Assembly: GCA_964016885.1 (NCBI GenBank)
Contig: OZ024741.1
Span: 363,816,001-363,880,000, forward strand
Length of the DNA: 64,000 bases
Reading direction: 5' to 3'
Origin: Eledone cirrhosa
Taxonomy: Eukaryota
Shown here: piece after piece, positions 1-58,530 of the stretch
Layout: every line of letters starts with the position of its first letter
Position numbering within the stretch: the stretch's first letter is position 1
Notes under the pieces: model-generated
The model's input: only the letters and a program-made list of their open reading frames with translations
What the model was told of the DNA's origin: nothing
Database searches by the model: none
Translations under genes and position numbers: made by a program

Positions 1-8538
<8,538 letters not shown>

Positions 8539-9088: not shown

Positions 9089-9348
9089 TGTCAGTGTTGA
9101 ACAAAAAGGTGACGTGGTTGCCTAAACACTGTACGGCGTAATTCGGGCTCTTTGTTCGTTTACAAACAAACAAACCGAGCATTATAATAAATGTTCGGTA
9201 AACCGATACGTGCATATATATATGTGTGCATGTATGTATATATACATACTACTATACATCTGTATACATATATGTATGTACGTATACATACATTTAAGTA
9301 AGTGCCATACTAAGAGTGAGAAATGAAATTTCGTTTCATTCTATTCCA

Positions 9349-11408
<2,060 letters not shown>

Positions 11409-20111: not shown

Positions 20112-20218
20112 TCACAGTGCTTCCACATAGGTGGCAGGGTAGAGGCCTACTCGACCGTCTTTGCGCCCTTTGCACCACCCTAATTCATCAGGATCAGAAA
20201 GTTTAGTGAACATTTCAC
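20112..20218 (-). CDS. PACSIN: Syndapin/PACSIN terminal coding exon, C-terminal half of SH3 domain
   Basis: Minus strand ttttctag|GTGAAATG...TGA translates (G)[34 protein letters not shown], matching the PACSIN SH3 signature GWCKGR...VGLYPxxYVE. Its phase-1 start fits the upstream exon. Confidence 0.95.
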
Positions 20219-20861
20219 CTAGAAAAATTAAAAAAAAAAGAGAAAATATTAGCTTGGAAGACAAGAAATTTAAAAAACATACACAAACATCATAATTTAA
20301 TGTTTTATAAATATATTTTCTTCTACATATTATCTCTCTCTCTCTTTCTCATACATACTATCTCTCTCTCTCACACATACTGTCTCTCTTCCATACACAA
20401 TCAGTTTCTCATTCTTTCTCTCACACATGTATTGCTTCTTCCCCCTTTCTCTTTTTCACACACAATCTCACTCTCTTACACACACACAAGCATATGTTTG
20501 CTTAGATATTTTTTGAGTTAAAATTGATTGAAAATGGAATTAAATTATTATTTAGAAAGTACTATTTAAAACAACAAAAAACAAAATATGACGAAAAAGT
20601 AATCTTTTAAATTTGTTTTTGAAATTTAATGAAAATTTTACTTTTTTTTTTAATAATTATATTTTTAAAAACTACAAGTGAATTTACTTTATTGTCAGCC
20701 AGTGGAAATTCCAAAAGTCAATAATGTAATGAACATTTTAAAATATAACTAAGATTTTTTAAAGAGAAGATTGGAAGACATGCATTTATAACACTAGCTG
20801 GTCAATAATTTTGCATGCTTGAAATCCAAGCCAAACCAGTTGTCATCTAGTAATGTAAGGT

Positions 20862-21087
20862 ATAAACTCTTAACGTCCTGTACTGCATCAAACCACGTTA
20901 ATGAAACATTCTTGAAACGTACAAAACAGTACTATAATTGTATCACATTAAAAATCAAAATATTGACTTTAATATTGCAAATTTTCAAGACAATCTTCTC
21001 GGCTAGTAAAGATACTAAAATCATTTGAATTAACAAACCTGTTTTTAGACATTTTCTGCTAAATCATTACAGGATGTTAAGAGTTAA
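20862..21087. mobile_element. MITE family C (representative copy)
   Basis: TIR AACTCTTAACGTCCTGTA / TACAGGATGTTAAGAGTT(AA). Related pieces at 21100-21305, 23550-23921, 38440-38650, 38860-39190 and nested at 44690-44890. Confidence 0.75.
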
Positions 21088-22712
21088 GCTATTACCTATT
21101 AATGTCTTGTATTGCATGGAAACATATTAGCAAAACATTCTTGAAAAGTACAAAACAGTATGACTGGATGACAAACATTTAAATTGTTACTCTAACACTG
21201 CAAATGTTTACAATGATCCACTAGTAAAGATACTATAAACATTTGAATTAACAAACCTGTTTTTATATATTTTTTGCTAAATCATTACAGGATGTTAAGA
21301 GTTAGGAAAAGAAGTCAGATTATGAGATTGTTTTAATGTAAAGGGCAGGGGGATGCCACAATATAAAAATAATGAATTTTCACTAATGAATTAATGAGTT
21401 GGGCTGTTTGATAGCTGAACAATGAACATTGAAACACAATAGATAGGTGTTGATGAAGGAAAAATGTTATTAACTAGTGCTGGGATTCAGTGAAAGCATA
21501 CTACATTGCAATATTAGGTATGATTTTGAAAGAATAATGAATCAGGTTTAAATGAGAATGAACATTTTAATGGCTATTTATCTCAGACACTGCAATATTT
21601 TTGATTATGGAAAATTTGGTCTAACATAACTAAATACAATAAATATGAAGAGGCACAAGAAAAACAAAAAAAAACAATATATATTTTTTTTTCATTATTA
21701 TCATTTTACGTCCACTTTTCCCTGCTTTATGGGCGAAAACAACAGAAAAACAAACAAAATATCTCAGTCGATCGCTGGAGATTCGTTATTTCAGTGCTTT
21801 TGGTTGACTGATGAGACGAGTCTGTCTGTTTCGTTCATTTTTCTGTTGTCTTCACCGATATTTTTTTTTTCATTTTGCATGATTTTAGCCATGCAGGACT
21901 CGTTTTTCAAATTTATATATATATTCCCCTACAGAGTTTTTGTTTACAAGACATAAAACTGCTTTTCATATCCTCACTCCCAAAGATCCCATTTGGTCAT
22001 AACTAACCATGGGTTTGCACCTAGAAAGTTCCTCTCCAAAACATTAAGCAGAGTTCACTGTTGCAAGCACTTAAGCCTTTCGTTACCATATTTCTAAATG
22101 AAAAACACTGTCTGATTTTTAAATAATTTTGAAAATAATCAAGAATTTGGAGGGTTTTAGAAACACAATCTTTTCATTTTTAAATTGGTATTTGGAACAT
22201 AAAGGTTCTTACATAGAATTATGATTGAAGGATTTTAGATAAATATAAATACTTTAAAATATACCCCTTAGTATTGTAGAACTAGGGGTTGTTTCAAGTG
22301 GTTTCGTGTCAAAAGGCTTAAGCTAACATCTCTAGTTATCTCCCTAACCATGTTTTTTTTTTTATCCCAATATTCAGGCTGAATACCAACGACAACTTCT
22401 CACCAGTATTTGGAGGGTCTGAAACAGGGTTGCCAGATTTGGTTACAAGTATCATATTTCATTACAACTGAATACTATTTTTATTTGGGTTACTTTTTAC
22501 TTCAAATTTTTAACTCTTAAACTGCATAAAACAATAAGATCTTTTTTAATAAAACAGCACCATGACTACGCCACATTAGTGATAGTTTAAACACTTGTTA
22601 ACAAACATGCTTCTAGATATTTTCTACTAAAGCATTGCAAGGTGTTAAGAGTTGAATTCTATTGAGTGTCACATTAAATTATCAACTAAATTTGAACCAA
22701 CTTGCTGGCAAT

Positions 22713-22749
<37 letters not shown>

Positions 22750-23971
22750 TGTTGTCGGATAGCAGGGTGCTATCGGACAACATAAAACAAGGGAATAGAC
22801 AGTATATCCCTGTCATCATCTATTGTATGAGGCTCAGACGTACTTTCAGCCCTTTAAACAATAGAACTGTTTGTCATATTAGGTCTATGGCTTTACAATA
22901 GCTTCCATATTTATAATTCAGCAGCAAAATTGAAATTTTGGGCTACTTTCCAATGCAATTTGCTACCTTTTGAAAGTTTTTGGCTACATTATATAAAATT
23001 GATCTGGAAACTCTGGCCTGAAGAATAAAAATATACTGATTCTCACTCTTTAACTTATTTAACACATTGAAGTTAAATACTTTTTGAAGTACCTACAGCA
23101 TATGATAATCACTATTCATGATTTAAAAGAAAGTTAGGAACTCTAAACACAAACAGCCAGATTAAAAAGGAAATGAAAGGAAAAAAAAAAGAACTAAATT
23201 CCTAGCTGACACCTGTGCGGGTTTAGGTGATCTCCTGTGAGGCTGCATCTCTTAGGAGATCTTTCTGTTATTTTAGTGATAGCGACCAAAGTCCTATAAT
23301 GAAAACCAATGTGAAAGGAAGTGTCTTGCTCAAGAACACAGTGAAGTGTCCAGTTCAGGAATCGAACCTATGACTTTATTATTGTGAGCTGAATACCCTA
23401 ACCACTTGGCAAAGACAAGACTTGACCCACAAAGAAAAAACGAAAATCAACAAGAATAATTTCCCCTCTATTATAAAAGAAAGGATTAGTATCTTTCAGG
23501 ATAAATAAAATGAAGAGAAGAATTTACTTTTGATTTTTCAAACAAGACATCATTAACTCAATGTCCTGTACCACATAAAAAACACTTCAGCAATGAACTC
23601 TCTAATGTTAGAAGGATAACTCTGTTATGTAATAAATTAACTATGCCCATCTAACATTATTTTATAGCATAAATGACTACATCCCATTAAATATTAAAAT
23701 CTTTAGTCTAATACTGAAAATTTTCACCATGATCAGTCCACTAGTAAAGAGACTATAAACACCTGAATTAACAAACCTACTTTAAGACTAAAAATTAAAG
23801 TCTTTATTTTAATACTGCAAATTTTCACAATGATCTGTCTTCTAGTAATGATATAAGCTTTTGAATTAACAAACCTGTTTTTAGGGATTTTCTGCTAAAT
23901 CATTGTAGGATGTTAAGAGTAAAGTATTTTGATCTCTTTTCAGTTTTGTTTTTAAAGTAATCTGAGCTCAC

Positions 23972-24267
23972 CTGCTTTAAAGGTCAGCTCATCTTGAGCT
24001 GTTGCGCTATAATCATATAAAGCGCGCACCGGCACACCTGGTCGGTTATCATCCACCAATGTTAAGTCTTCATCCCATTCTTCACTGTCGGGATCACCAA
24101 ACGGATTCTTACCATCAGCAGCTTTGTTGTTATCAACAGCAATAGTAGTAGGAGTAGTAGAATTGATAGTAGTAGAAGTAGTAGTAGTGGTGGTAGGAAG
24201 AGGAGCAACGTATGATGTTGAATCGGAGTTTGTTTGATCAGGGTTATGATTGTCAGCAGTCTCAGCA
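23972..24267 (-). CDS. PACSIN: Syndapin/PACSIN penultimate exon: Thr-rich linker, NPF motif, N-terminal half of SH3
   Basis: tttgcag|...|gtgagc, 296 nt, phase 2 to 1. Translates AETADNHNPDQ...TTTTT...DGKNPFGDPDSEEWDEDLTLVDDNRPGVPVRALYDYSATAQDELTFKA(G). Confidence 0.95.
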
Positions 24268-24773
24268 CTGCAAAGTTAACAGAAACAGTCGGTGTGGAAT
24301 TGTGGCAACATAGGGAAACAAACAAGAAGAAGCAGGGAGGTGCAATAAGTTAGAGAAAAAAACAACAAAAAAACTTAAATCTACGGTAAAAAGAACAAAA
24401 ATAAAATAAAAACAGCGATTTTCTAAGGAACATGCATTTTGAAGGGGGAGAAATAAGAATGCAAAGGGGTTGACAGTATTACATGCAAAAGCAACATCGA
24501 GAAATAAAAAAAAAAGCAAAACTGTTGAATATGCAAACAGATAAAGCACATTGATGATAATAAGAATAATAAAAACAACAATTATAATAATAACAAATAG
24601 CTGTGCAAAGAGAAGGGAATTAGAAGTAACGGTGGTTTCCAGAACTTTCTCTTTTACAGTCATTAATGGATAATAATCCATAATAATATGGATACTTAAA
24701 ACATTTATTAATTGTTCAAAATATTCATTAATGAATAAAAAAATGTTTGCCCTTTTTACCTCCTAAATAATAT

Positions 24774-26128
24774 TGTTTCTAGTTTTGGCACAAGGCCAGA
24801 AATTACCCCAGTGCATTATTGGCACTTTATTTTATTGATTCCATAACGATGAAAGGCAAAGCTAACCTTGGTGGGATTTGAACTCAGAACATAAAGGTTC
24901 ATAACTCTATGCTGCAAAGCATGGTGTCTGACGCTCTACCGATACTGCCAATCCACCGCCCTAAGTAATATTAATAATTGTTTATACATTTGGCACAAGG
25001 CCAGCAATTACCCAGTGCAATACTAGTACTATATTTTATCGAGCCCGTAAGGAAGTTAACCTTGGAGGGATTTGAACTCAGACCATAAAAGACTGTAACT
25101 CTTTGCTGCAAAGCATGGCGTCCGACCCTCTACCGATACTGCCAATCCACCTATGGTTTCTAATTAGGCACATGACAAGCAATTTGGGATAAAGGGGAAA
25201 GTCGATTATATCAACCTCAGAAGAATGAAAAGCAAAGTTGACCTTGGCATGATTTGAACTCAAAGAGCCATAACTAATTGCTACAAAGCATTTTGTTCAA
25301 CACTATAACTGTTCTGTCAATCCTCCACTCTTTGTAATAATAACAGTTTCTAATTTTAGTTTAAGGTCAGCAATTTGGTGGGGAACGTGTAAGTAGATTA
25401 TATCCACTCACAATACTTGATTTGTACTTTATTTAATCAACCTTGGAAGGATGTAAGGTAAAGTTGACTAGAGGGAGGGGAATTTGAAGTCAGAATGCAA
25501 AGAGCAGAAACAAATACTGCAAGGCATTTTTTCCAATGTCCTAACAATTCTGCCAATGTCCTAACAATTCCTTAATAAAATAGGTTTTTAATTTAGATAC
25601 AAAGCCATTAATTTTGGGTGGTTGGTAGGTAGGGGGCTGATAATATTCTCCACTACCTGACTGGAACTTTATTTTATCAACCCCAGAACGATGAAAGACA
25701 AAATTGGCTTCAGCAGGATTTTAACTTAGAATATAAAGAGCTGGAACAAATATCACATAATACTGTCCAACACTAATGATTCTGTCAGGTACAGTTGATT
25801 AAATAAACTCCAGAAGTTCATTGGTACTTATTTTATTGACTGGTGAAGGATGAAAGGTGAAGTAAACCATGACAGGATTTAAACTCATAATGTAAAGATA
25901 TGTAACTAAATAAGCCAGGGAATTTTGTCTCACAGTTACACCAATTCTGTTATTCCACTGCCCTTATGATAATGGTGTTTAATTTAAGCACAAGGCCAAC
26001 AATTTTGAGGCAGAGGGAAAGTCAAATCTACACCAGTAATTGATTGCTATTTTATTTTATTCACTCCAGAAGGATTAAAGGCAAAGTTGACTGTGATGAA
26101 ATTAGAACTCAGAACACAAAGAACTGGA

Positions 26129-26130
<2 letters not shown>
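24774..26130 (-). mobile_element. Head-to-tail cluster of about 7 tRNA-derived SINEs (Meta-domain-like core)
   Basis: Recurrent unit ttggcacaaggccag...ttattttatcgacccc...gatgaaaggcaaagttgacct...gatttgaactcagaac, i.e. B-box GAGTTCAAATCC on the minus strand. Other copies near 16650-17460, 28120, 42340, 43450, 44150, 52125, 53920, 56900. Confidence 0.85.
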
Positions 26131-26160
<30 letters not shown>

Positions 26161-27545
26161 TAATAATAACAATAATGATAATAATTTAAACATGTTTTTA
26201 CCTGAAAACAAATATTTTATCCCATTAAAATAGAAAACAAATATTTCATCCAATCAAAATAGAAAACAGAAATAGCTTATCCAATCAAAAAAACAAAGAA
26301 ATAGTTTGTAGCTGATGAAACCAATAGCTTTCAATGAAAAACAAAAAAAAAATAAAAATAAAAATGAATTTTGTTAAACAACTTAAGAAGGCTACTGTAA
26401 TCAAAATTTCTTAAAACTAAGAAAAATTCTTTTTTTTTTAAAACTAGATTGTTGTAACTGCTGAAACTGGGTGAAAAAAACAACTTTTATCAATTGTGGT
26501 TAAAGAAAACTAAAAAGAAAAGGAGCCAATCATAAGATTGGACAAAGAAACAAATTTAAAAAATCATTAAAATTAAACTGATGCATTCAATTAAATTTTA
26601 TTTGTTCAAATTATTTACCAAAAAGATATTTTTCTGAATCAAATAATGCTGATCAGACATCTATTTTTAACTTGTGTGTGTCTATCTATTTTCCATGTTG
26701 GCATAGGTTGGATGGATCGTTATGGTTCAAGTCAGCTCTTATTCAAAGTTAACCTCTCCTAAAAAGATCAGAGGACATCTCACACATTTGCTCATAATAG
26801 TGAGAGATGGGGAGAGTGGGAGAGACGGAGGCTGTGACAGTGGGAGTTTGGTTCCTTTGTGTTCGGACCTGGTGTATATATGTGTATATATTTATTTACT
26901 GCACCACATGTTACAAACGTTTACTCACTTGTCTACAACAAAGACAAGACTATCTTTTCCGACATTCTTGACTGTATCCAGAGAAAAGCCTCACAAGACT
27001 TACTATTTAGTCTTAATAAAATGAGTATACACACATTCCTCTGTGTGTGTGAAACTGGTATTTATTTCCAGGTGGATGAGAAGCTAAGTGGAAGCTTACA
27101 TCTTTGCTCCCAGCTCAGCTGGATCATGGATCAGTGTTAGACTAATTATTGTGAGGAAATCTAAGAGACTATAAGAGTACAGAAGAAATTACAATAGTGA
27201 CAATTTGTTTATTTTACAAATTTAAAAAAAAAAAAAAATGCTTTTTAAAAATTTGAATGAAAAGAGTTTGAAATGAAAATCAAATCAGTATGTTATCACC
27301 AATATGAAAAAAATGTTCATAAAAAACATCCTTAGCCTTAGACTAAGACTTGAATGAAAAAAATGATTACAAGCTAGTTATAAAAAAAACAAGAACAACA
27401 AACTTTTCAAGATATCTTACAAACAATATATAGAAGTGTTACGATGAAGAATATAAAGAAATAAGGAATATATAAAGGATGAAAGAGAAGAAAGGAAATG
27501 GTTGCATGCAGCTTCAAAATGAGCAGGACAGCAACATGCACTGAC

Positions 27546-27550
27546 TGAAA
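27546..27550 (-). CDS. Candidate 5-nt microexon of syndapin (TTTCA)
   Basis: About 150 nt AG-free pyrimidine-rich tract with a CTAAC branch-like motif, then cactag|TTTCA|gtcagt, and two TGCATG motifs just downstream. Confidence 0.3.
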
Positions 27551-28573
27551 CTAGTGAACAACATATAAAATTTAGGGAAAGGTAGAAAATCAAGTTAGAT
27601 CGAGGAGGAAAACAGATGACAAAAGAAAGAAAGAAAGAGGAAAAACAAACAAAAACGAAAATCAATGAAAATGTAATAAAATTAATGATTAAAAGATGTT
27701 AAGCAACTCTATATAAGATCTTTGGGAACAACAAAATGAGCCTGCTCTTCATAGCCATTCCTATGCAGATATTTATTTATATATTTTAATAGAAGTATAA
27801 GAATTAACCCTTTTATTAACATATTTCTAATGAAAGGCACTTAATGATTTTCAAATTATTTTAAAAACAGTCAAGAACATAGAGCAATTTAGTAATATAA
27901 CTTTCTCATTATTAAGCTGGTATTTGGAACAAAGTTTCTTCCATAAAATTATGATGGAAGGTTTTTAGATAAATATCAAAATTTTAAAACAAATAATCTA
28001 AAAACGGGTGGTTTTAGACAATTTGGTGTCAAAATTGCTAAGAACTCTACTAACTAGAAAATTATACTTGAGAATAAAATTTTGAAAAAATACAAACAAA
28101 AAAAAAACAAAACAAATAATTATTTCTACTTTTGGCACAAAGCCAGCAATTACCCAGTACATTACTGGTACTTTATTTTATCGACCCCCGTATGGATGAA
28201 AGGCAAAGTTAACCTCAGTGGGATTTGAACTCAGATCGTAAAGGGACGTAACTATGCTGGAAGCATGTCCGACCCTCTACCGATACTGCCAATTCACAAA
28301 ACAAATAATGATAGGCACTGATACTAATCAATTTGAAACAGAATAAAAAGTAAAAAAAGAAATCAAAATTATTTATTTAATATCATTAAGGAATGATTGG
28401 TGATCAAATTCTTACACTAGATATAGAATATAAACTTAGGGAAAAATAAATATATTTTTTGTCTCAAGCCCAAATTTATAGTCAATATATAACAATATAA
28501 TTTCAGTGAAATGTAAAAGAAAATTAGTTATTCTACACAGTATATAAAATATACCTGTTGATTTAAATAAATA

Positions 28574-28702
28574 TTAACCCTTATAGAGCTGCCAAGTTAA
28601 TATATTGGACTTGATAACATATTCAAAAACGTGTACTGGCCTAAAAATGTGCTCATCCATAGTGTTTTTGCTATATAATAATAATAGCATTAAAAGGGTT
28701 AA
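28574..28702. mobile_element. Short TTAA-flanked MITE
   Basis: TTAACCCTT...AAGGGTTAA ends 129 bp apart. Confidence 0.55.
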
Positions 28703-29130
28703 AGATGTAAATCTTAATAATGAACCTTTTCATTTATTTTGTTACTCTTCATGTGCAAAATTGTGTTAATTTAACTACACAAACAAGTTCATGATGGATG
28801 TAGATTTCACCAATGAAAATGATTTTAGGAAAACAAACCTGAGGGTAAAAATATAATTGTATAAGCAAAGAACATATATATATGTTTCCCTGCCCCATAC
28901 AAACTCATAAATAACATTTAGAAGCGAATCTATTAGAGAAAGAGCAATGGAACATTTGACACAATCCTCTTGCGATTGTAAGGCAAAAGCAAGGAGTCTT
29001 TATTTCTACTGAAATTGTTTGTTTTTTTTTTACTTTTGGTTGCAGTGCAAATGGACAACTAATGCAGCAGGTTTTTACGACACTGGGAAGTTGGCTGCTT
29101 GGGTGTAGGACAGTACCTACCTGGTTTATA

Positions 29131-30067
29131 TCAATCAGAGAAATCAGATAAGGACTCGGTATCAACACTGCGAAAATAGCCGTCCATGGACTGATCTGTG
29201 TTGGATCTGTTTAAATTCGCATTGCTGCAGTATGATCCTTTTCGGTTATCTATATAGTGAGGCGATTGCAAATGACCTACAGGGCTCCTATTATTCATGT
29301 TCCTATTTGGAGAGGTCAGATTTCGGTTACCACCAATTCCTTTATTACCTCCAGCAGGTTTCCCAAGGATCATATCTCGAATTTCTTTGTCAAAGTTATC
29401 AGGTACTCCTCTATATTGGCTCTTTCTCACCTGGATTGGCGATGGAGAGCTGGGTCTTCTCTCTTCTATGTGAATTGTAGGCTGGCTTTGATTATTCAAT
29501 GGTCTTATCATTGGGTTAGGTGGGCCTGGAGACTGATGAGCGAAACTACCACGTCGATTTCCAGGACTTACTTTAAGTTCATTTATTACTGGTGGTCGTA
29601 TACCAGGTGGGCCCATGCCTGGTGGGCCCATGCCAGGCGGACCCATGCCAGGCGGACCCATGCCAGGCGGACCCATGCCAGGCGGACCCATGCCTGGCGG
29701 ACCCATGCCTGGCGGACCCATGCCTGGCGGACCCATGCCTGGCGGACCCATGCCTGGTGGACCCATGCCTGGTGGACCCATGCCTGGTGGGCCCATGCCT
29801 GGTGGACCCATGCCTGGTGGACCCATACCTGGTGGACCCATGCCTGGTGGGCTCATGCTAGTTGGACCAACACCTGGTGGTCTCATGCCAGGTCTTATGC
29901 CACCAGGTGGACCCATACCAGTTGGTCTAATGCCACGGGGGCTTGAACCCATGGGACGTGGATCCATTCCAAGTCTAGATTGTCCAACACCACGCCCTTG
30001 AGGAGTTGACTGAGTAGTTGGGCTGATTTTTATGCCAGCATTTGAAGGAGCTTTCAGATTAGGTGAG
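29131..30067 (-). CDS. PACSIN: Syndapin alternative exon encoding a Pro/Gly/Met-rich low-complexity region, ending in a stop if read through
   Basis: Pyrimidine tract + cactag acceptor at 30067, in phase 2 like the neighbouring exons. Open for ~310 codons (SPNLKAP...(GMGPP)16...ESLSDFSD*). Repeat variation is synonymous in this frame. Confidence 0.75.
29606..29845 (-). repeat. Coding 15-bp minisatellite, 16 units, (Gly-Met-Gly-Pro-Pro)16
   Basis: Units GGY ATG GGY CCR CCW read directly from the sequence. Confidence 0.95.
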
Positions 30068-30510
30068 CTAGTGAGGTAAATAGATGAAGGAACAAAGAAG
30101 GACTTAGAAAGTTTGAAAATATCATTGCTAGGTTGGATAAACAATTCAATTTCATGTAAAAACCAACAACTGACATCTAAAATGAAACATTTGTTAATAT
30201 GCATTCAGATAAGAAATACTTAACCATCTACACATTGAAAATCTACATTAACCTAGTGTAAGCATGTAGATTTACTTGGTCCTTAATCATAAAGGTGTTT
30301 TCAGTTTCAAAATTAGACAACATTTTTTTGGCATATCAATAGTAACTCCAAACCATGAAATAAAAATAGTAAATCACTAAAGTTAAAAAATTAAAAATAT
30401 TCCATTTATGAAGCATTGTGAGATATGTAATAAATCACTAAGTTTCAAAAAGCCTGTACAATGTGGTATGACAAATAAAACAAAACAAAGTAATATTTTA
30501 CCCAGTATAT

Positions 30511-30555
30511 TTCAACATGATATTTCAGGGCTATTACCCTCTTTTCAAATGTGAA
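30511..30555 (-). ncRNA. Second, inverted copy of the Penelope hammerhead-like motif
   Basis: Minus strand TTCACAT-TTGAAAA-G-AGGGT-aata-GCCCT-GAAA-TATC-ATGTTGAA. Confidence 0.5.
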
Positions 30556-31020
30556 TCAAACGGTTTAAAACAAACACCGGCCTACATACAACAATATGTG
30601 CACACTCTCCTACATGGTCCCATCAATAATAAAAAAGTGTGGACGAGAGCGTATGTGGTCTATAAGGTCACATGTAAAAAATGTAGCTCCTCGTATATCG
30701 GAAGTACTGTTTAGGTGCTGCACATATGGATTAAGGAGCACATGAACATGACGAGAGCTTCTTCTGTTAAAAAGCATCTTCATCTTGACATGCAACAGCA
30801 AAGACATTGAGGTCACCATAGAAGCGATGGAAAGGAATGTGAATGATTTAAGAATCAAAGTGGCCATTATCATCAACAAGAAAAGCCACAGATAAATAAT
30901 ATATTGGAAATGTATGAAACAGATTGGCTACTATAACAACTCCACACGTGTATTTCAAACATGTTAACCAGTTAAGAAAGAACACATTGATTGTTCGTTT
31001 TTGTTTTGAACCATTTCTGC

Positions 31021-31065
31021 TTCACATTTGAAAAGATGGTAATAGGCCTGAAATATCATGTTGAA
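31021..31065 (+). ncRNA. Minimal hammerhead-like motif (U3-A8 variant core) in Penelope terminal repeat
   Basis: TTCACAT-TTGAAAA-short stem II-GAAA-TATC-ATGTTGAA. Confidence 0.5.
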
Positions 31066-31088
31066 ATATACTGGGTAAAACATTACTT

Positions 31089-31797
31089 CTTCGCCCAATT
31101 ATTCCTGAGAAAGTCGTGGAGGCAGAGTCCTGAAACACTCCTTCTAGCGGGTCCTGTCAGAAGCAATCGTCTCCAACTGATCCAGCTGTAGCCCCAAACA
31201 AAACCAGCCAATCTCATGGATGTTATCCAACCATCTTGCTCGGGGTCTACTCCTGAGTCTCGCCCATAAAATCTGTCCAGCAATTCATTCCTGAGATATT
31301 CTAACCACGTGCCTATAGTATTGGAGCTGTGATCTCTCAATCTGGGAAGTAGCAGCTCTACCTGGAGTGGGTCTCTGATCTCTAAATTACTGCTGAAGCT
31401 GGTGCATTACTGCAACAGCTCCTGCAATTCTTGCATTAATTCAGCCGCCTGCCTTCCATTACTCATGAACATGGCCCTGAGATACTTGAACTTCTCTACC
31501 TGCTTCAGTGGAACTCCATTTACATGTAGCGTACACTGCACAGGCTTCCTTGAGAGGAAGAGCGTCTCAGTTTTTGCAGCACTCATTTTCATTCTAGCCA
31601 TGCAGCACTCAGCATCAAACCTATCGAGTGCAAGTTGGAAATCAACTGTCAAATTAAGTAACACTGTGTTGTCTGCAAATTCCAGTCGACTCATTTTACA
31701 CCTGCCAGTCATGATACCACTTCCGACCCAACTGTGCATGTCAATCCTGTTCATGTAAATAATGAACAGGAGAGGTGACAGTATGCACCCTTGTTTT
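31089..31797 (-). mobile_element. RTE-type LINE 3' fragment (degenerate RT)
   Basis: KQGCILSPLLFIIYMNRID...LEFADNTVLL...KTE...LKQVEKFKYL motifs. Confidence 0.88.
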
Positions 31798-31868
31798 ATT
31801 TGTCATCATTTGCCCTTTATATATTTCTACTACATTGTACAGGTGTTTTGAAACTTATCAGTCATTTA

Positions 31869-31921
<53 letters not shown>

Positions 31922-32224
31922 TAAAGTGTCATTGCTTGAAGAAGTAATAAAACACTATCACTTCAACCAAAGAATATATTAATAAAACGTTTATAATTTC
32001 AATCTAGTGTTTTTGTCTTTTAAAGGGTTTATCCTCAAGATATAAAGTTTGTTGTTGTTAAAAGGTATATATATATATATTATATATATAATCTACTATG
32101 GTATAAAAACTCTGCATAGGAAGAGATATGTTGTACACAGGAACTTCCATTCATGCCAAGATGCAGTAAATATATTTTTAGTTAATTTAATTATATAGAC
32201 ACTGAACTGCAAACCTATCATTAC

Positions 32225-32332
32225 TTTTTCTTTTGTGATGTGTCTTTCACCAAGTGTTTAGCATCACTATGTAAATCTTCATCATCAGATTCCTCTCCGA
32301 AAGGATTAAGGCTCTCATCGTAGCTCTCTTGC
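32225..32332 (-). CDS. PACSIN: Syndapin NPF-motif cassette exon (108 nt, phase 2-2)
   Basis: ttttatag|G CAA GAG...AAA AA|gtaatg. Translates QESYDESLNPFGEESDDEDLHSDAKHLVKDTSQKK, an NPF followed by acidic residues. Confidence 0.88.
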
Positions 32333-32658
32333 CTATAAAAGTTACATGAGCTAATAAAGCTGTTCAAATTCAATAAAGTTGTTGGCTAAACATTTTTTAT
32401 TTTTTTTTAGAGAAGGGAGTAGTATAAATGAACACACATTCAAACATTCATACACACAAATACACACCATGCATGTCAAAACCAACAGATAGGTTAAATA
32501 AAAATCAAATCAAATACTTATATTGAAAAAAAAAACAAAAAAAAAACACGTGATTTTAAGCTTCTTTGTGAAAATACTTTTTTTTTACATGTATTGGCAG
32601 AAACACTCAATTATTCAAAGAAAAGCATGTAAAAAGAAAAAAGGGCATGAAAACATAC

Positions 32659-32682
32659 AATGCATGTTTTGAAAAACTCAAA
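32659..32682 (-). CDS. Candidate 24-nt frame-preserving microexon
   Basis: About 165-nt AG-free upstream zone, aaatag|TTTGAGTTTTTCAAAACATGCATT|gtatgt. Open in phase 2 (LSFSKHA). Confidence 0.3.
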
Positions 32683-35600
32683 CTATTTTAGTTGTTAAAC
32701 ATAATTATTAGATAAAGAAACGAATAAATAGGTAGTAGAATAATTTTGTAAAGAAAAAGAAAATAAAATAAAAATGAAGGAGGAAGTGAGTGAGGGTGTT
32801 CAAGAAATCCATTTGAAATAAACAGAAATAAATTTAGTATGATGTATTTCTTGGAACCTGCAATAAAATTGTGCATTACCACTGAAAATAAAATGAAATT
32901 TAGAAATTGTCATGATGTAGCAAAAGAAATTGAAAGTCTAACAATTAGGAAAACTGATTGATTGATATTGTAAAATATTTATTTTTCTGATACACTGAAC
33001 CAGCATTTTCATTCCTTCCTGTCTAATTTACACAAAATTAATTAAAAAATAACATTAAACCTATTAAATTCTGACCTCTCCATTAACCATGTTAACATTT
33101 GTTATATTTCTAATAAAAAAAACATTGCCTAAGATTTTCAAATAATTTCAAAAATATTCTAGAACTTGGAGGAATTTAGCAAAATTCATTCTGGCCTATC
33201 ATATTGATTAATTGAGGTGAGAGTGCCAAAAGTTTCTTTGCTCCCAGGCACTGAAAGCCTTTACTTTACTTTTCCAATTTGGCACAGATTAAAGAGGAAT
33301 TTTTAAAAACCTTTTCCCAATTTATCTAATTCCTGATATACATTTTGAGGTCAACTATAAATACTTTATCTTAACCTATATTTTTTTCTTGACCAGCATC
33401 TTAGATTATCACAAAGGGTTACTGGCAGTAAAGATTCATATTGGTGGTACAAATTTCTTTAAAACTTCTATGATTTAAAAAATTTGAACCAAATGTTAAA
33501 ATGATTATAGGTAAATATATTTTACTATCTGTAGATATTGTCAAACACTGAATAATTTTCAACAAATAGGTTTATTAATGCTTTTACTGCCATATTTCTA
33601 ATGATTATTATCAAATTAAGTTGTTAGGAACATAAAGGCTCTTACATAAACTTATGATATAATCAACACTTTAAATTCATTATTAGTTTATATAAATTAT
33701 ATTCAGTATTTTATTTAATCTTATTTATCAAATAGTTTTTCAGTAGTCATTTTACGATACAGTGAAATTTGAAGAAATCTATTCCGAATACTAATAAATT
33801 GTCTTTTCTTTTTTACAGTATACACCTAATTAAAAGAAAACAACAAAATTCAATGAAATCAAACTAAAATTACTTTCAATATTGCCCATTTGATATTAAT
33901 CCTTTCATTTCCATATTTCTAGTGTAAGACACGGCCCATGATTTTCAATTAATTTAGAAAATAATCAAGAATTTGGAGGGGTTTAGCAACATAACTTTTT
34001 CGTCACTCATCTATTCTGTTCTTATACAAAATTATTATGGAAGATTTTTACATAAATATAAATAAACTTAAAATATACAGTTTTGTATCAAAGAACCTAG
34101 GTGGTTTCATATAAAAAGCATTTAAAAAATCAGAGAATTTAAGGAAATATGAAATATAAAGTAAAATGCCCCCCCCCCCCCCCTCCCATAAACAGAAACA
34201 CATATATACTCTGAATTGTTAGGACTCTGGCTAACTATTATATTCACCTATGGATATTCAAATCATTATTCAACCAAGTTACTTGTCTGGCAAGTAACTT
34301 CGTTGAAGACTGCATGTTGAAACTAAAGCAACCACATTGAAAAAATTATTTTGTGGTGTTGAAAATTTTGTTGCACTCTTTGTGATCTAGTAACTGACTC
34401 CATTTCACTGCAATTTAGTTGTAATAGAGAGCAATGAAAAAATTGATACTGAAAAGTGAATATGACAGCTTTTGTGTATTTCTTTTGAATGGCTAAAATT
34501 ACTTTTCCATGATGTAAAATATATATTTACTGGTTTTAATAACTGAGCTGTGTGCTGGGGCACCACCTCTAATGGTTTTTAGTTATTACATTGACTGCAA
34601 TACGTATTTTACTCTGGTATTTATTTTATTTATAACTATTTACTAAATGGCTAAATAGCCTTTTGGGATAAATAGATGCAACTTAATGCATCCATTTATC
34701 CCAACTATACTCTAGTTGTTTGATTATTGGAACAACCTGTTTGTGAAATTAATGTGCAAGTGGCTGACTTGTGTACCCATAACAAAATTCATAGGGATAT
34801 TGAGCATGAAAGTGTATGAAAAGTCTGGTTCTTTCAATTACAATGGCCTTCCATACAGTTTTCATCTACTCAATTTCAAGGCTTGGGTTAACTCAAGGCA
34901 ATGGTAAAGACACTTCCCCAAGATGTCATACAGTGGGATCAAACTCAGGACCTTATAATTGCAAAGCAAACTTCTTAACCATTTGACTATGTTGTGTACA
35001 TGGATATAGACAAACAGACACACAAGTTCAACAACTTTCAAATTATTGATCAACTCACAACCTATTGCTGAAAATGCTGCTCAGTGAGATTGAATCCAGG
35101 AATTTGCAATTAGTAATTTGAGAGAGAGAGAGAGAGAGAGAAATTACTTTAGTTATAACAGTTTCTGATGCTTTTTTTAGCTTTACAAAACATTTCATTA
35201 ACCCTTTTGTTAATCATATTTCTTAGGAAATCCACTGCTTATAATTTTCAAATCATTAAAGAAATAATCAAGAATTTAGCAAAATAAGTTCTCATTATTA
35301 AGCTAGTGTTTGGAATATAATTTGAGAAAGCTTCTTGCATAAAATTATGATATAAGATCTTTAGACAAATATAAGTACTTTTATCATAAAACCAGAGCAG
35401 TTTCAGGGAGTTTGGTATAAAAAAAGTTAATAGTTCAACATTTATTAGAAATATCACTATATAACTATTTACCACATCCAAACAAAACATTTTACTTTCT
35501 GAAATTTTTGTCATCAAATTCAATTTATAATGGTTAAAAAAAATAAAATAGAGCAAGACAAATTAGAAATTTGAGAGGAATGTAAAAAATATATATAAGA

Positions 35601-35877
35601 TAATCAGTTAGTAGTTATGATTAAGTCATATAAACTATTTCTGAATTTAGGTGGATGGGAGGGGGATAAGCAATAAATAGAACTGAAAATAGAAATACTT
35701 GGATTATTTGAAAAAAAAGAGGGTTAAGCATTTGAAGTTAGAATCTTCAGCTAGAAAACAGAAAAGATTTAAAGAGTTTGGTGGGTGGATAGTTGGGGTT
35801 GATAGGCTAACAGTTGATTGACAATTATTACAGAATCAATTGAGAGAAAAAGGCAGTTGAATCATGCTGTATTACCT

Positions 35878-36168
35878 ATCATCATCATCATCATCATCAA
35901 CGTTTAACGTCCGTGTTCCACGCTTGCATGGGTTTGGACGGGGGTAGTCCCACTTGAGGCAAGAGTGATTGTCTTGCTCGCATAGGACTGTCTGGCAGGT
36001 TTTCTACAGTTGGATGCCCTTCCTAACACCAACCACATTTACAGTGTGGGTCTGGGAGGTTTTTACCGTGTTGCCTACACGGCCACATTACAGCGTGGAC
36101 TGTGTGTTTTTTTGTCGTGTCACCTACACGATCTCATTTGTTTCGGCCTGGATGGCGCGGCACCAACA
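35878..36168 (-). mobile_element. RTE-tail SINE or RTE 3' UTR copy
   Basis: Reverse complement closely matches 8539-8847. Confidence 0.8.
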
Positions 36169-38142: not shown

Positions 38143-38310
38143 ATTTTTTGTTCGGTTGCAACAGCAGTGTTATTTTGATCAGTTGCAACAACAGTAGTGA
38201 TCTTTTGCTCAGTTGGAACAGTGATCGCTTGTTTCTCTTTGCTATCTGCTGGATCCATGCCTGACTCATCATCAAAAGGATTCAGTTTGTCATCATACTG
38301 TGGCTCTTCC
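38143..38310 (-). CDS. PACSIN: Syndapin NPF-motif cassette exon (168 nt, phase 2-2)
   Basis: ttttttag|G GAA GAG...AAA AT|gtaatg. Translates EEPQYDDKLNPFDDESGMDPADSKEKQAITVPTEQKITTVVATDQNNTAVATEQK. Confidence 0.88.
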
Positions 38311-44259: not shown

Positions 44260-44312
<53 letters not shown>

Positions 44313-45101: not shown

Positions 45102-45269
45102 CTGCCAAAAGGATTTTTATCAATAGCTTGTAGACCACATATTGTTTGAGCAGACAAAGACTCAGATATCTTAATCATGGTATTTGTGGCATGACTTGTC
45201 CACCTTCCAGTGAAAGATTTTGATAAGTTGACAACATAAGAAAGCTTTGATTTCACACTGTTAGTAAAT
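45102..45269 (-). CDS. Candidate syndapin NPF cassette exon (168 nt, phase 2-2)
   Basis: tattttcacag|A TTT ACT...AAT CCT TTT GGC AG|gtttga. Open in the required phase and ends ...QAIDKNPFG; the donor is weak. Confidence 0.5.
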
Positions 45270-45848: not shown

Positions 45849-45880
<32 letters not shown>

Positions 45881-46902: not shown

Positions 46903-48256
46903 ATAACATTTAAACATTTGAGTGGAAGAGTAGCCATAAATGACTCAGTGTAAATAATGAGAAATACACACACACACACATATATATATATAGTTCAAGA
47001 ATAAACAAGACAAACACATACATGAAGAAATCCAAAGTCTTATTAGTTTCATACTTGGGAAGTATATATAATATACATACACACACACACATATATCTAT
47101 ACACACACACACATTCACATATAAATGTGTGTGCATATATACATATATATATATATATGTACACATATATATTGCATGTAAGTGTTGTTTTGGTCCTGCA
47201 ACATGAAGTAATAAAATATTTGTGAGGCAACAAATAAATATATTTTAAACAAGAAAAATAACAATAACAGAAAAAATGCGACAGTATTATCAAATGGAAT
47301 AAAAAAATAAATTAAAAAGGGTAAAAAAAAAGGGGGGGGGGGGGGATTCAAATAAATTCAGACATGAAAATAAACTTACTTTTGGTAATTTGATCCTGTT
47401 GGAGGTTGGTCTGAATTGGGAGTATAACTAGGTTCACGGGAATGCTTGATACCTGTTATTATGATACCTTCATTTGAGCCGAATGCTTGCTTTTTTGTTT
47501 TGGTGATATTGTGTAATTCTGGTGAATATTCCTAAGAAAAATAAAATAAAATAAATATTACATGTACCACAGCATGGCCACAGTCTAATAACTGAAACCA
47601 ATAAAAGTGTAAAAAAAAAAATAATAGAAAGGGATCCAAAGCAGCGCCTGGTGATATTTTCCTTATTACCACAGACTTCTGGGATAGAGCTGATCATCAG
47701 ATCAAACAAAAAGAAACAGTGTTTCAACTGATGGTCGCAATTTCTGGCAGAAGAATTTGAACTTAGAACACATAGAAGTTATCAAGTGTTTGATAAGACT
47801 AAAGAGTTCTCCCTACCCTATATTGTCTTCATTTGATCACTAGACACATTACAGAGTGTAATGAGTGTATTTTATCATGGCACCAGCACTACAACGGTTG
47901 TCAATATATATTTAATTTTGTTTTCATTTGTCACAATTGATGAGCAATAGTTTCATTGATTTTTAACTGACGAATCACTGGTTCATTGAGAGTGACAAGA
48001 AATTGCTTAACTCAGCAGAACAAAAACACAAGATATTTTTTATTGAAAAGCATCAGATTTTTTAGTTTCCTTACCAATGTTTACAGCATTCACCAGTATA
48101 CATTAGCAAAAAATATATACATATATGCATCTGACTGTAAAATATTGCCTCAATTAAGACTGCACATATATATATATATGTGTGTGTGTGTGTATTTCTC
48201 ATTATTTACACTGAGTCATTTATGGCTACTCTTCCACTCAAATGTTTAAATGTTAT
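46903..48256. repeat. Perfect 90-bp inverted repeat pair (46903-46992 / 48167-48256) flanking a syndapin exon
   Basis: Arms are exact reverse complements, including a (CA)7 tract; the ORF track shows the same peptide on opposite strands. Confidence 0.95.
47380..47531 (-). CDS. PACSIN: Syndapin post-F-BAR exon (152 nt, phase 0-2)
   Basis: ttttcttag|GAA TAT...CAA AA|gtaagt. Translates EYSPELHNITKTKKQAFGSNEGIIITGIKHSREPSYTPNSDQPPTGSNYQ, resembling the PACSIN segment after WPQFE (EW/Y...KKK...GVTLTGI). Confidence 0.9.
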
Positions 48257-48786
48257 AAAGTCTATTAAGGTACTTATAAAGCTAACCCCTGCTTTAACAG
48301 GAAAGATAGCCTTAAAATGTGAGTGTGTGTATTGTATTAAGAGAGAACAAAATTTTCTTTGTTGTTCTTAATACAAATACTCTGCAAATTACATCAATAA
48401 CAAACTGATGCTACTGCAAATATACACATTCAACACGGAACTATTCACGTAATAGCATTGAGTGCTTAAACTGGTGGCACCCATAGCAATAAAATATTAG
48501 CAAAACTCCATCACTATGCTGTTGGTAAATGCTAATACAAATGCTAGTTTAGGGGCTCATTCTTAGCTAAGAACTTCCCTTGCAGTTGTCTCATTAGGAA
48601 AATATATCCTGGGTTGGTTTTGTATTGTGTAGCTAGTTTAGGCTTGTTGTAGTTAGTTGTTGGGTAGGACTGTATAAAGAAAAGTTACACACATACACAC
48701 ACACACAATGGACTCCTGCAAAAATATTGTGTGAGTGGTTACAAAGCAAATTTTTTAATCACACTATCATAGTATATATATATATA

Positions 48787-52537: not shown

Positions 52538-52569
<32 letters not shown>

Positions 52570-55077: not shown

Positions 55078-55425
55078 ATCATCATCATCATCATCATTTC
55101 ATTTGACGTCCGTTTTTTCCCTGCTTGCAAGGGTGGGACGGGAACTGATTCTGGCTTGATTTCTACAGCTGGATGCCCTTCCTAACACCAACCTCATTTA
55201 CAGTGAGTGCTGGGTGCTTTTTTGCCGTGGCACCTGCACGACCACTTTGCAGTGGAATGATATGGACCCCAATCCCTATCATCTCATTTCTACAACTGAG
55301 TAAACTGGAGCAATGTGAAATAAAGTGTCTTGCTCAAGGAAACAACACATCACCCGGTCTGAGAATTGAACTCACAACCTTTCGATTGCAAGGCCAATGC
55401 TCTAACCACTAAGCCATGTGCCTCC
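55078..55425 (-). mobile_element. RTE-tail fragment followed by a tRNA-derived SINE
   Basis: 55078-55250 matches 5678-5900; 55260-55425 has a tRNA-like head on the minus strand (tggcttagtggttagagcattgg...gagttcaattc). Confidence 0.75.
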
Positions 55426-58400
55426 ATATATATTTATCTAAAAATCTTCCATGATAATTTTATGTAAGAATCTTTAAGTTACTCTAAAAAGGAAGGAAGT
55501 CAATTATCAGTTTGTACCAAGGAAGCAATATTTTGATTGGCCTTTCCATTGATGATACTCTAAACACTAGCTTAATAATTAGAAAGTTGTATTACTAAAT
55601 CCCTTCAAATTCTTGATTATTTTCAAGCTGGTTTAAAAATCAGTGTCTTTTATTAGAAATATAGTTACAAAAGGATTAACAGATTTTAAATATGAATCAG
55701 ATAAGGTGCAAAATGTGAAGATCATAAGAACACTATCTTCTTTCCAGCTACATGAATATATATATATGCCTACATGATACAGGTTCTCAGAAAATAGCTC
55801 ATCACAAAAGGAGCTAACACTTGAGACCTTTTAATTCAAAATTAGTGAAGTCATAGACCCAAGTATTTTGTTTTATATAGTGTGCTTAAATATTAAAAAA
55901 AACTAAAATATTATCTTAAGAATAAGCCTGTAAACTTGAAATATATGAACAAAGAAATAAACTGTGTCAATTCTTTAGAAATACAGATTCACAGTATCTA
56001 ACATTATCAGAGGATAATAAATAATGGTTTTAAGTAGAAAATATGTCTGAAATGTGAAAATATTGCCTACTTCAAATCTTTCTATCAAATAAGGGCATAG
56101 TAACAATAATTGTTTTTACTATTTCTACTTACAGCTCTAGAACCAAATTATATCAACTTTCTTCTCATTAACATTCAGTAAACCCAAAAGTGTAATTTTC
56201 CACCTAAATCATTATCCTATCACTTAAAAAAATTAAAATTGATGAACAATTATACACAACAATTAAGCCAGCCCTACTTGAACACACATACACACACTCA
56301 CATACATACACAGGCAAACATACATTTAGTATTGGTGAATGTGAGAACAAATATTCAATACTATAGCAGAGATTAAGAGTTAATTAGGACTGATTCAGTG
56401 ATCTGTTACTCTAGAGTTTTCCTGTGTACTCTCAATTCTACAAACAATTGTCCACAAATGTGTGGTGAACCTTTAACTGGCAGGGCAAACTCTAAAGTAA
56501 CAGTATAAGTCTATATACACATACTAGAAAACTTGATTTGATTTTGTAATTAAAAATGTGAATTAACAAACTAAACTTTTCATTTACAACTTAAATAAAT
56601 ATATAGCTTTATCAATTTACAAAGAATAGAATTTTAATTAGTAAAACGTTTGATGTACTTAAACTTTATAAATAACATCAAGTATGATTCATTATGGTAA
56701 AATATTAACGCACACACATACATGTCAAGTTTACAACCATAAATGTTTTATTAGTTTATAAAAATCTACTCAACCTCATTATAAATACATTTTATATTAA
56801 AAAAAAAGTGCATATCCTGTACACAAAGGCACTTGTTTGTAAAAGGTATATAAATATGCTTTTAATGAGCAATTTAACAAATATTATATTGATTTTTGGC
56901 ATAGGCACAAATTTGGTATTAATTAGAACATAGTTGATCACATCAACCCAGTATTTAACTGGTAATTGCATTTTATCCACCCCATAAGGATGAAAGGCAA
57001 AGTTGGCCCTGGCAAGAATTGAACTCAGAACAAAATGAGATAACTAAATACCACAAAGCATTTTCTCCACACCTTTCCTAATTTTGCCAAATAATATATT
57101 AACTATAAACCAAACTAAAATTAATCAGATCTGAATAGTTTAAGAATTTGGACTCATTTCAAAATATAAATAAAACTCTTCATAGAACATCACAAAAACA
57201 ACAAAAAACAGGATGACAACAAAATGTCGGTTATGCAATCACATAAACCTCCAAGTTCATATTGTGTTTAAACATATCAATTAGGAAATCTAATAAAATA
57301 AAATGCTGAACTTTTGTATAAAACCAAGTATATTCATATATTGACTAAGAATGGAATGTTCAGATATCAGTAAACAGAGTAAGGAATGTCATAAGCTAGG
57401 TCTTTGATATGAAATGCTTTTATGACTGAAACACAATTTTCTAAGATATTAAAGCTTGATTGTAAATACCAGTAGAATCTTGGAATGCTTTGAAAGTTAA
57501 CACGCTATTTTTTGGCAATGGTAAATACATGATATAAATATCGATGAGACTTTGGAATGCTTTGGCAGTTACCAAACCATTTTTCAGCAATGCTAGATAA
57601 ATGGTTTAAATTGGCATTTTCCCTTGTTTCCTATGTACTGTATTAAAAATTATGATTAACTTGAATAAGCAACAATTTTACAAAAAATATATGTTCTGGC
57701 AGTGAATTTAAGTATATACATAATTTATTTAATATAATTCAATTCTTATATATATAACAATAAAGCATAAAAAAGTAACCAAAAATTAAAAAGGTAAGGT
57801 AATTGCTAGTTTTTAGATAATATTATACAGGATTAAAAAATTTACCAACATTAAAATGAATCAACTACTCAGATAAATACAATATATTTAAATGTTTTTC
57901 TAAATTAAATGAGATTTCCAGAAAATAAAACCTAACATCAATTACATAATCACAATCATCACATACCTTACAGATAGAAAATCAATACTTATATCCTTTA
58001 TAATACAGAATAAATCTGAAAACTTAACGTTAATTATATATATATATCATTGTCATCATATAATTATATTTGAGATGTAGTTGTCACAATGTAAATGACT
58101 ATAGAGAACAAAGGTGTGTGTCCACTTTTTTCCCACCTCCAGAGGTATTTACTCAATTCCCTCTATTATTTATAGTGATTGATTATCATTATAGTCATTT
58201 ATATTGAGATGCCTACATTCAAAAATTCAAAGTTTCCCAACGTTTCTTAAGGCAACTGGATGTTCACATATATATCATAAGGGATCTTTTAACTAAGATA
58301 CAAAACAAAGACAAAACAGATCTACATGATAACAACAGCTGGGTAAAAAGTTAGCAATGTTTTCTTTCTTTCTTTCATCAGATTTATTCCAATATCTCCA

Positions 58401-58507
58401 AGCAAACTGTCCAGTTCACAGTTAGTTTCATAGGCAGCACCAGGCAATTAGTGAAACAAAAAGTTTGTACAAGATTTCCCACACTAGTATTTCCATGAAA
58501 GACTCAC

Positions 58508-58530
58508 TGAATTTCTTCTGGATGGTATTC
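58508..58530 (-). CDS. Candidate 23-nt alternative post-F-BAR microexon (EYHPEEI), or start of a short terminal exon EYHPEEIQ*
   Basis: gtttttcacttcag|GAATACCATCCAGAAGAAATTCA|gtgagt. Strong splice sites, same phases (0-2) and same E-Y-x-P-E start as exon 47380-47531. Confidence 0.55.

What the first reader, a model, noticed from the sequence alone, without database searches (positions are those of the whole stretch)
20112..58530. Modular, phase-locked exon set between F-BAR and SH3 of a syndapin gene
Seen: after the phase 0-2 post-F-BAR exon, exons 45102-45269, 38143-38310 and 32225-32332 are phase 2-2 and each carries one NPF; the SH3-proximal exon carries a fourth. Established: syndapin NPF motifs bind EH domains of EHD proteins, and the SH3 binds dynamin/N-WASP. 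Inference: splicing could set NPF valency from 1 to 4 and swap C-termini (SH3, Pro-rich or truncated).
Basis: partly seen in the sequence, partly recalled or inferred. Interest (0 to 1): 0.75.

Follow-up and report, generated by a model that had tools for sequence, protein, structure and literature searches.

The report
Octopod syndapin with swappable tail exons
An octopod gene for the membrane-bending protein syndapin carries optional exons that, judged from gene models of related octopuses, likely set the number of EHD-docking NPF motifs (0 to 3, not the proposed 4) and likely swap the SH3 tail for a conserved proline-rich tail, which would free the membrane-bending part from its usual brake.

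Summary
The window holds the 3' half of an octopod syndapin/PACSIN gene (minus strand). The three segments are AG/GT-bounded, open, phase 2-2, with one NPF each, as claimed. Exons B (38310-38143) and C (32332-32225) are tandem duplicates. Among 13 cephalopod proteins they appear singly, together or skipped, giving 0-3 NPFs. Segment A (45269-45102) beats chance (1 of 200 simulations) but is in 0 of the 13 and has no database hit, so four NPFs is unshown. The conserved post-F-BAR exon is 47531-47380; 58530 starts an unsupported 23-nt look-alike. NPF number set by splicing is already known for rat syndapin II. The newer part is exon P (30067-29121): 311 residues with 16 PPGM repeats and a stop, replacing the SH3. 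Three Octopus species' models contain it, and a distant relative keeps its end and stop (51% identity). Contig ends in a relative's run suggest P splices to the last exon, leaving its stop 10 nt before the last junction, likely safe from decay. No junction among the optional exons was seen in this species. Verdict: new variant of a known kind; interest 0.4.

The parts
58508..58530 (-). T58: candidate 23-nt phase 0-2 microexon resembling the start of the post-F-BAR exon; either a mutually exclusive alternative to it or, read through, a stop exon giving an F-BAR-only protein. Unverified.
   Evidence: Best match to the real exon's first 7 residues among 40 candidate acceptors in the 23,337-nt intron (score 17, next 8; reached in 2 of 300 Markov runs); GTGAGT donor. 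DNA similarity to the real exon not significant (41 of 300 shuffles reach it); in none of the fetched proteins.
47380..47531 (-). Post-F-BAR exon, 152 nt, phase 0-2; present in every cephalopod protein examined
   Evidence: 70-86% identity to homologues, splice sites, present in 13 of 13.
45102..45269 (-). Segment A: candidate 168-nt phase 2-2 cassette with NPF at its 3' end. Unverified.
   Evidence: Good acceptor, weak donor, open frame; 1 of 200 in the null; single copy in the genome search. Against: 0 of 13 proteins, no homologue, GC 0.35 close to flanks, no acidic residue at +1 or +2 after NPF in the two joins translated.
38143..38310 (-). Exon B: 168-nt phase 2-2 optional cassette with an acidic NPF; donor read-through gives three stops in a row
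   Evidence: In P0004, P0035, P0036, P0037; skipped in the others; donor sequence.
32225..32332 (-). Exon C: 108-nt phase 2-2 optional cassette with an acidic NPF; tandem duplicate of B, same 10-nt donor
   Evidence: In P0003, P0035, P0036, P0037 (94% identity); B-C DNA alignment above all 300 shuffles.
29121..30067 (-). Exon P: phase-2 acceptor, 311 codons with 16 PPGM repeats and a conserved C-terminal half, stop ending at 29131, strong donor 10 nt later; replaces the SH3
   Evidence: In O. vulgaris, O. sinensis and O. bimaculoides models P0041-P0043; distant homologue P0119, 51% identity, same last residues; covered by a contig of run X18 that leaves the genome at this donor.
23972..24267 (-). 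S1: SH3-proximal exon, 296 nt, phase 2-1, with the core NPF and the first third of the SH3
   Evidence: Homologues 64-72%; Pfam SH3_1 positions 1-17, below cut-off alone; a contig of run X23 starts at its first base and leaves at its donor with 0 mismatches.
20112..20218 (-). S2: last exon, rest of the SH3; its bases 2-4 are an out-of-frame TGA that ends any phase-2 exon joined directly to it
   Evidence: 86-97% identity to homologues; translation of joined exon sets.

Best explanation
This is the linker-to-SH3 half of an octopod syndapin gene in which two duplicated phase 2-2 exons (B, C) are likely optional and would set the number of acidic NPF motifs at 1 to 3, while a stop-containing proline-rich exon (P) likely replaces the SH3-starting exon and would give an F-BAR protein with no NPF and no SH3. 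How it would work: the F-BAR dimer shapes membrane tubules; more acidic NPFs would give tighter binding of EHD's EH domain (inferred from vertebrate data); the SH3 recruits dynamin and N-WASP and folds back to damp the F-BAR (shown for PACSIN1). Isoforms without SH3 (P, or B/C followed by a stop) would lose both the brake and the dynamin/actin link. P likely splices to the shared last exon, so its stop lies 10 nt before the last junction and would escape nonsense-mediated decay. One gene would thus cover the NPF range (0-3) that vertebrates spread over three paralogues. Segment A is at most a rare or lineage-restricted exon.
For: Shown: exon anatomy and open frames; 9 of 10 genome matches lie in this one locus, the tenth is a weak SH3-only match; an EHD gene is present. 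Isoforms in relatives: skip-all 4, C only 1, B only 1, B+C 2, B+C truncated 1, B/C-like truncated 1, P 3, of 13 proteins. P's C-terminal half is conserved down to the stop in P0119. In run X18 the S1 contig and the P contig both run 27 nt past their donors, the value expected if both donors (sharing CAG) merge into the last exon with 30-nt contig overlaps; P's two extra matched bases fit the start of S2, not S1 (inference). Literature: NPF-EH binding and the preference for acidic flanks (PMC13282721); SH3 autoinhibition (PMC3517540; PMC9285741).
Against: No junction among A, B, C, P was seen in this species; in the one own-species run laid, most of P had no cover. Ten of the 13 proteins are gene models from four annotations, whose RNA support I could not see; five come from a single O. 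vulgaris annotation. The O. bimaculoides model P0043 joins P in frame to S1 and keeps the SH3, which the window's stop codon forbids. The P-to-S2 joint is deduced from contig lengths in another species; the loose letters were not displayed. Autoinhibition is partial in PACSIN2 and weak or absent in PACSIN3, so it may not hold here. No binding or activity was tested.
Confidence: 0.7

Rival explanations
1. One reading: A is a true third cassette, so NPF number runs up to 4.
For: Good acceptor, right phase, open for 55 codons, NPF; 1 of 200 (loose) and 0 of 200 (strict) in the null; same length as B; weak DNA likeness to B (9 of 300 shuffles reach it).
Against: 0 of 13 cephalopod proteins; no hit among 8 candidates in the large protein search (weak evidence by the tool's own note); not acidic or disordered like B and C; weak donor; the null is post hoc.
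Confidence: 0.3
2. SH3-less forms are by-products: P and the truncated B/C forms are low-level or decay-bound transcripts that tune syndapin dose and make little protein.
For: P nearly uncovered in own-species run X23; if P joins S1 its stop is 306 nt before the last junction; any phase-2 GTAA donor gives a stop on read-through; the truncated forms rest on one model and one contig.
Against: P's coding sequence and stop position are conserved at 51% with invariant blocks, which points to selection on the protein; P contig depth 29 against 168 for S1 in X18 (contig depth is a poor measure); contig ends favour the P-to-S2 joint.
Confidence: 0.15
3. P is an internal phase 2-2 cassette that keeps the SH3 (as in model P0043); a donor overlapping the stop codon is present in some species or is created by A-to-I editing of the stop codon's A.
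For: P0043 reads from P's last residue through one cysteine into S1 in frame; one A-to-G difference at the stop would give a GT donor at exactly that phase (sequence); extensive A-to-I editing in coleoids is recalled.
Against: O. vulgaris, O. sinensis, P0118 and P0119 all stop at the same place; the X18 contig continues past the stop to the later donor.
Confidence: 0.1

Closest known systems
Rat syndapin II / PACSIN2 long and short splice forms (PMC2174535)
   Same: Optional insert in the F-BAR-to-SH3 linker adds one NPF (3 against 2), with tissue-biased use.
   Different: Here two duplicated cassettes give 1-3 NPFs in one gene, and an alternative exon removes the SH3; the passages seen describe no SH3-less form.
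Copepod-type syndapins (clusters of P0018 and P0024)
   Same: Near-identical proteins with or without a linker insert that carries a second acidic NPF: 11 of 12 SH3-bearing members of one cluster have 1, 14 of 15 of the other have 2.
   Different: No sequence likeness to B or C was tested; no PPGM tail seen in these proteins. All 15 locust isoforms listed have a single NPF.
Octopus vulgaris, O. sinensis and O. bimaculoides PACSIN gene models (CAI9729810-14, XP_029643072.2, XP_036362971.1, XP_014778554.1, XP_052827969.1)
   Same: Orthologous exons B, C, P, S1, S2 are already in these automatic annotations.
   Different: Segment A and T58 are in none; the models disagree on how P ends; none was found described in a paper.
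PPG-rich tail of SmB/B' (GYF and WW ligand)
   Same: Unstructured tail with repeated PPG motifs; 16 PPGM in exon P.
   Different: Resemblance of a short motif only; SmB is a nuclear splicing protein; no binding tested.

Membership tests
Syndapin/PACSIN | N-terminal F-BAR domain of the PACSIN type | tested here: met
   Six upstream exons join to an open 298-aa domain, 95% identical to named octopod PACSINs; homologue P0005 (89% identical) hits human PACSIN2 at E 3e-121 and 15 PACSIN/syndapin sequences in the PDB.
Syndapin/PACSIN | Hydrophobic wedge loop in the F-BAR | tested here: met
   The loop has two methionines at the aligned place, one residue shorter than PACSIN2 and the same length as PDB 3i2w syndapin (aligned through P0005). 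Sequence only.
Syndapin/PACSIN | C-terminal SH3 domain | tested here: met
   S1 and S2 encode it. Absent from the predicted P and truncated isoforms.
Syndapin/PACSIN | Linker NPF motifs with acidic flanks (EHD-type ligands) | tested here: met
   3, 4 and 3 acidic residues in the six after NPF in B, C, S1; 1-2 for A. Binding itself not tested.
Syndapin/PACSIN | SH3 autoinhibition of the F-BAR and dynamin/N-WASP binding | not testable with these tools
   Known for PACSIN1; inferred here.
Alternatively spliced NPF cassette (syndapin II long/short type) | Frame-preserving exon with NPF found both included and skipped | tested here: met
   For B and C, in relatives' proteins. Not observed directly in this species.
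Alternatively spliced NPF cassette (syndapin II long/short type) | Segment A found in a transcript or protein | tested here: inconclusive
   0 of 13 proteins, no database hit; no reads were laid successfully over it.
SH3-ligand proline-rich domain (dynamin PRD type) | Class I or II motifs, PxxP with a flanking basic residue | tested here: not met
   Exon P has 3 PxxP and no class I/II consensus (consensus patterns recalled).

The most novel reading that the evidence does not exclude
Cephalopods evolved an SH3-free syndapin in which a conserved, repeat-built PPGM tail with a short invariant C-terminal module takes the SH3's place through a decay-proof splice to the shared last exon. The result is an unbraked F-BAR tubulator wired to new partners (GYF/WW proteins or a condensate) instead of dynamin, N-WASP and EHD, used in a specific cell type, and perhaps switchable back to an SH3-bearing form by editing of its stop codon.
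Probability: 0.25. Interest if true: 0.7.

Novelty: new variant of a known kind. Interest (0 to 1): 0.4.

Why it matters
Vertebrates divide syndapin's jobs among three paralogues with 0 to 3 NPFs; this octopod appears to do it with one gene. That makes a clean natural series (0, 1, 2, 3 NPFs; with and without SH3) for testing whether NPF number tunes EHD recruitment. The conserved proline-rich SH3 replacement has no Pfam family and was not found in print; if it is made as protein it is a new kind of syndapin tail and a candidate shaper of cephalopod-specific membranes. The NPF part alone is an expected repeat of what is known for syndapin II.

Tried and rejected
Read evidence: the run search listed no holder on record as RNA. 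Laying four runs at 80% likeness over 23700-39000 was swamped by dispersed repeats; none of the 15 joints shown (1588 more not shown) joined the exons, and bin depths over B and C cannot be told from repeat noise. A second laying over the optional exons returned no data, so inclusion of A, B, C and P in this species stays open. Segment A as a transposon piece: one match in the genome, only a sub-threshold Pfam match (E 0.088); rejected as far as these searches reach. P0120 (third hit, 25% identity, unrelated repeat protein): rejected. P as an SH3 ligand: no class I/II motif. An upstream acceptor for P at 30127: scores poorly and the homologues start at the 30067 site. Poly(A) hexamers lie downstream of every donor tested in this AT-rich DNA: uninformative. 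ESM Atlas: no usable hit for the P tail of P0041. One search had a boundary error in my script and was rerun; its numbers are not used. Earlier findings: none. Braun et al. 2005 was not held. An SH3-less CIP4 splice form is recalled but was not confirmed, so it is not used. No structure or complex was predicted: the tail is low-complexity with only a handful of homologues.
Full report
What the locus is. The window is G000:C2:363816001-363880000, AT-rich (GC 0.29). The SH3-proximal exon finds PACSIN-named proteins of Argonauta and Octopus as best hits (64-72% identity). A homologue searched against the own genome gave 10 matches from 31 candidates: 9 exon matches in this locus on the minus strand, the F-BAR exons lying 7-45 kb beyond the window's right edge, and one weak SH3-only match elsewhere. 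Six upstream exons join to an open 298-residue F-BAR, 95% identical to Argonauta, O. vulgaris and O. sinensis, 89% to two unnamed Logan proteins (P0005, P0039) and 49-53% to arthropod-type proteins; O. bimaculoides scores 88% because its model has an internal gap. The two Logan proteins group apart from the octopods with moderate support (80/100). P0005 hits human PACSIN2 at E 3e-121. One EHD gene passes the Pfam cut-off in the genome.

Checking the observation. All three segments have AG and GT ends, phase 2-2, an open frame and one NPF; S1 (24267-23972) has the fourth. The conserved post-F-BAR exon is 47531-47380, phase 0-2. The finding's edge at 58530 marks something else: a 23-nt phase 0-2 segment (T58) whose first residues resemble that exon. 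It is the best of 40 candidate acceptors in the 23.3-kb intron (score 17, next 8; 2 of 300 simulated introns reach it), but its DNA likeness is not significant and no fetched protein has it. NPF alone is common here: 25 in six frames. With splice scores loose enough for B and C, the linker introns hold 6 candidate phase-2 exons, 3 with NPF; 30 control candidates hold none; 1 of 200 Markov runs gave one. The scoring table was recalled and the test is post hoc.

Which exons are real. I fetched 13 cephalopod proteins that span the linker; left out were P0038 (67 aa, does not reach it) and the P-only fragments P0118, P0119, P0121. Skip-all: P0001, P0002, P0005, P0040 (1 NPF). C only: P0003; B only: P0004 (2 NPF). 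B+C with SH3: P0036, P0037 (3 NPF). B+C without SH3: P0035. A B/C-like exon then stop: P0039. Exon P: P0041, P0042 (0 NPF, no SH3) and P0043 (joined on to S1). Segment A: 0 of 13. Ten of the 13 are automatic models from four annotations (five from one O. vulgaris set), so they are not independent, and I could not see their RNA support. B and C align at DNA level above all 300 shuffles, share the first 10 intron bases and both align to P0039's exon (scores 77 and 84; A scores 25), so they are tandem duplicates of one older NPF exon. A found no protein (8 candidates, none at E up to 10), is single-copy, has GC near its flanks, and its NPF has 1-2 acidic residues in the next six against 3-4 for B, C and S1. 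EHD-type EH domains prefer acidic flanks (PMC13282721, passages). I put A at about 30%.

Exon P. From the acceptor at 30067 it encodes 311 residues with 16 PPGM repeats, no NPF and no class I/II SH3-ligand motif, and matches no Pfam family. Its non-repeat half found one cluster of three Octopus models (73%). In 1.84 billion representatives it found 3 hits: P0118 (78%), P0119 (51%) and one unrelated. P0119, an unnamed Logan protein, has different repeat units but keeps an internal block and the same last 12 residues, which points to selection on the protein. Ten bases after the stop lies a strong donor (29121).

Read evidence (four runs, contigs only). In X23 (same organism code as the DNA holders, kind not on record) a contig starts at S1's first base and leaves at its donor without mismatches, depth 90 against 3-10 for neighbouring intron pieces, so S1 is spliced; most of P had no cover. 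In X18 (a relative, RNA by guess) one contig covers most of P and leaves the genome at 29119-29121. Its 25 loose letters plus 2 matched give 27, and the S1 contig of the same run has 23 plus 4, also 27. With 31-mers (30-nt overlaps, word size as in the tool's description), 27 is what two donors that share CAG give on merging into one exon, and the two matched bases fit S2's start, not S1's. In X23 the figure is 28, as expected for a merge with the unspliced intron. So P likely splices to S2; its stop would be 10 nt before the last junction, against 306 nt if joined to S1, and would pass the 50-nt decay rule (recalled). This is inference from lengths; the loose letters were not displayed. Model P0043 disagrees: it joins P to S1 in frame.

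Truncated forms. S2's bases 2-4 are TGA, so any phase-2 exon joined to S2 ends after one residue, with the stop inside the last exon. Read-through of the B or C donor gives the same end. P0035 and P0039 fit either route; I cannot tell which.

Mechanism. Shown: anatomy, frames, isoform patterns in relatives, conservation of P. From the literature: NPF binds EHD (PMC13282721, table passage); the SH3 binds dynamin and N-WASP (PMC2174535, abstract; PMC9285741, passages); the SH3 damps the F-BAR in PACSIN1 and in the fly protein, less in PACSIN2 and little in PACSIN3 (PMC3517540, passages); SH3-less syndapin did not induce filopodia (PMC2174535, figure legend). Inferred: B and C raise avidity for EHD; P and truncated forms are unbraked and uncoupled from dynamin and actin; the PPGM array may bind GYF or WW domains as SmB's PPG tail does (PMC11412891, passages).

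Comparison and novelty. Rat syndapin II already has 2 or 3 NPFs through an optional insert. Two copepod-type clusters show 1 against 2 (27 SH3-bearing members of 30 listed; 3 fragments dropped); 15 of 15 locust isoforms have one. So NPF number by splicing is a known kind. The octopod exons are already in automatic annotations. Searches for syndapin with octopus, pacsin with cephalopod, and any three of syndapin, pacsin, octopus, squid, cephalopod gave no paper on cephalopod syndapin among those listed (one search listed 20 of 1,405); the one review with both words does not link them (PMC13312728, passages). The library lacks most subscription papers; Braun et al. 2005 was not held; no supplements were read, and cephalopod splicing or proteome tables there could bear on A, T58 and P. 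Other papers were seen only as search listings. Earlier findings of this scan: none.

Verdict. Observation partly confirmed, interpretation partly supported: 0-3 NPFs rather than 1-4. New variant of a known kind, interest 0.4, carried mainly by the conserved SH3-replacing exon P.

Noticed in passing
window 1-11408: An 11-kb degenerate AT dinucleotide array (5,654 copies, 72% matches) with a 200-N gap at 728-927; it explains the very low GC and the C skew.
   Followed up: partly
window 58508-58530 (-): T58, a 23-nt phase 0-2 look-alike of the post-F-BAR exon's start; could be a mutually exclusive microexon or an F-BAR-only stop exon (2 of 300 in the null).
   Followed up: partly
window 38133-38142 and 32215-32224 (-): The first 10 intron bases after B and C are identical and read as three stop codons in frame; the first stop is automatic for such a donor, the other two are not.
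   Followed up: partly
window 29131-29132 (-): The O. bimaculoides model P0043 splices in frame at P's stop codon; a G in place of the stop's A (genomic or by editing) would make the donor it needs.
   Followed up: no
window, NPF hits near 33898, 36278, 44510, 58764 (+) and 55677 (-): A dispersed repeat whose translation contains NPF recurs in the introns and accounts for several chance NPFs.
   Followed up: no
window 31407-31802 (-): A 131-codon open stretch that looks like a fragment of a LINE reverse transcriptase (recalled likeness, not searched).
   Followed up: no
proteins P0007, P0009-P0013 against P0018: Copepod-type syndapins also occur without the post-F-BAR segment, and P0047 carries a linker insert of about 320 residues, so the linker is a splicing hot spot in other invertebrates too.
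   Followed up: partly
proteins P0004, P0035-P0037: Exon B in Octopus carries 4-5 copies of an 8-residue repeat; the window's B has two or three degenerate copies.
   Followed up: no
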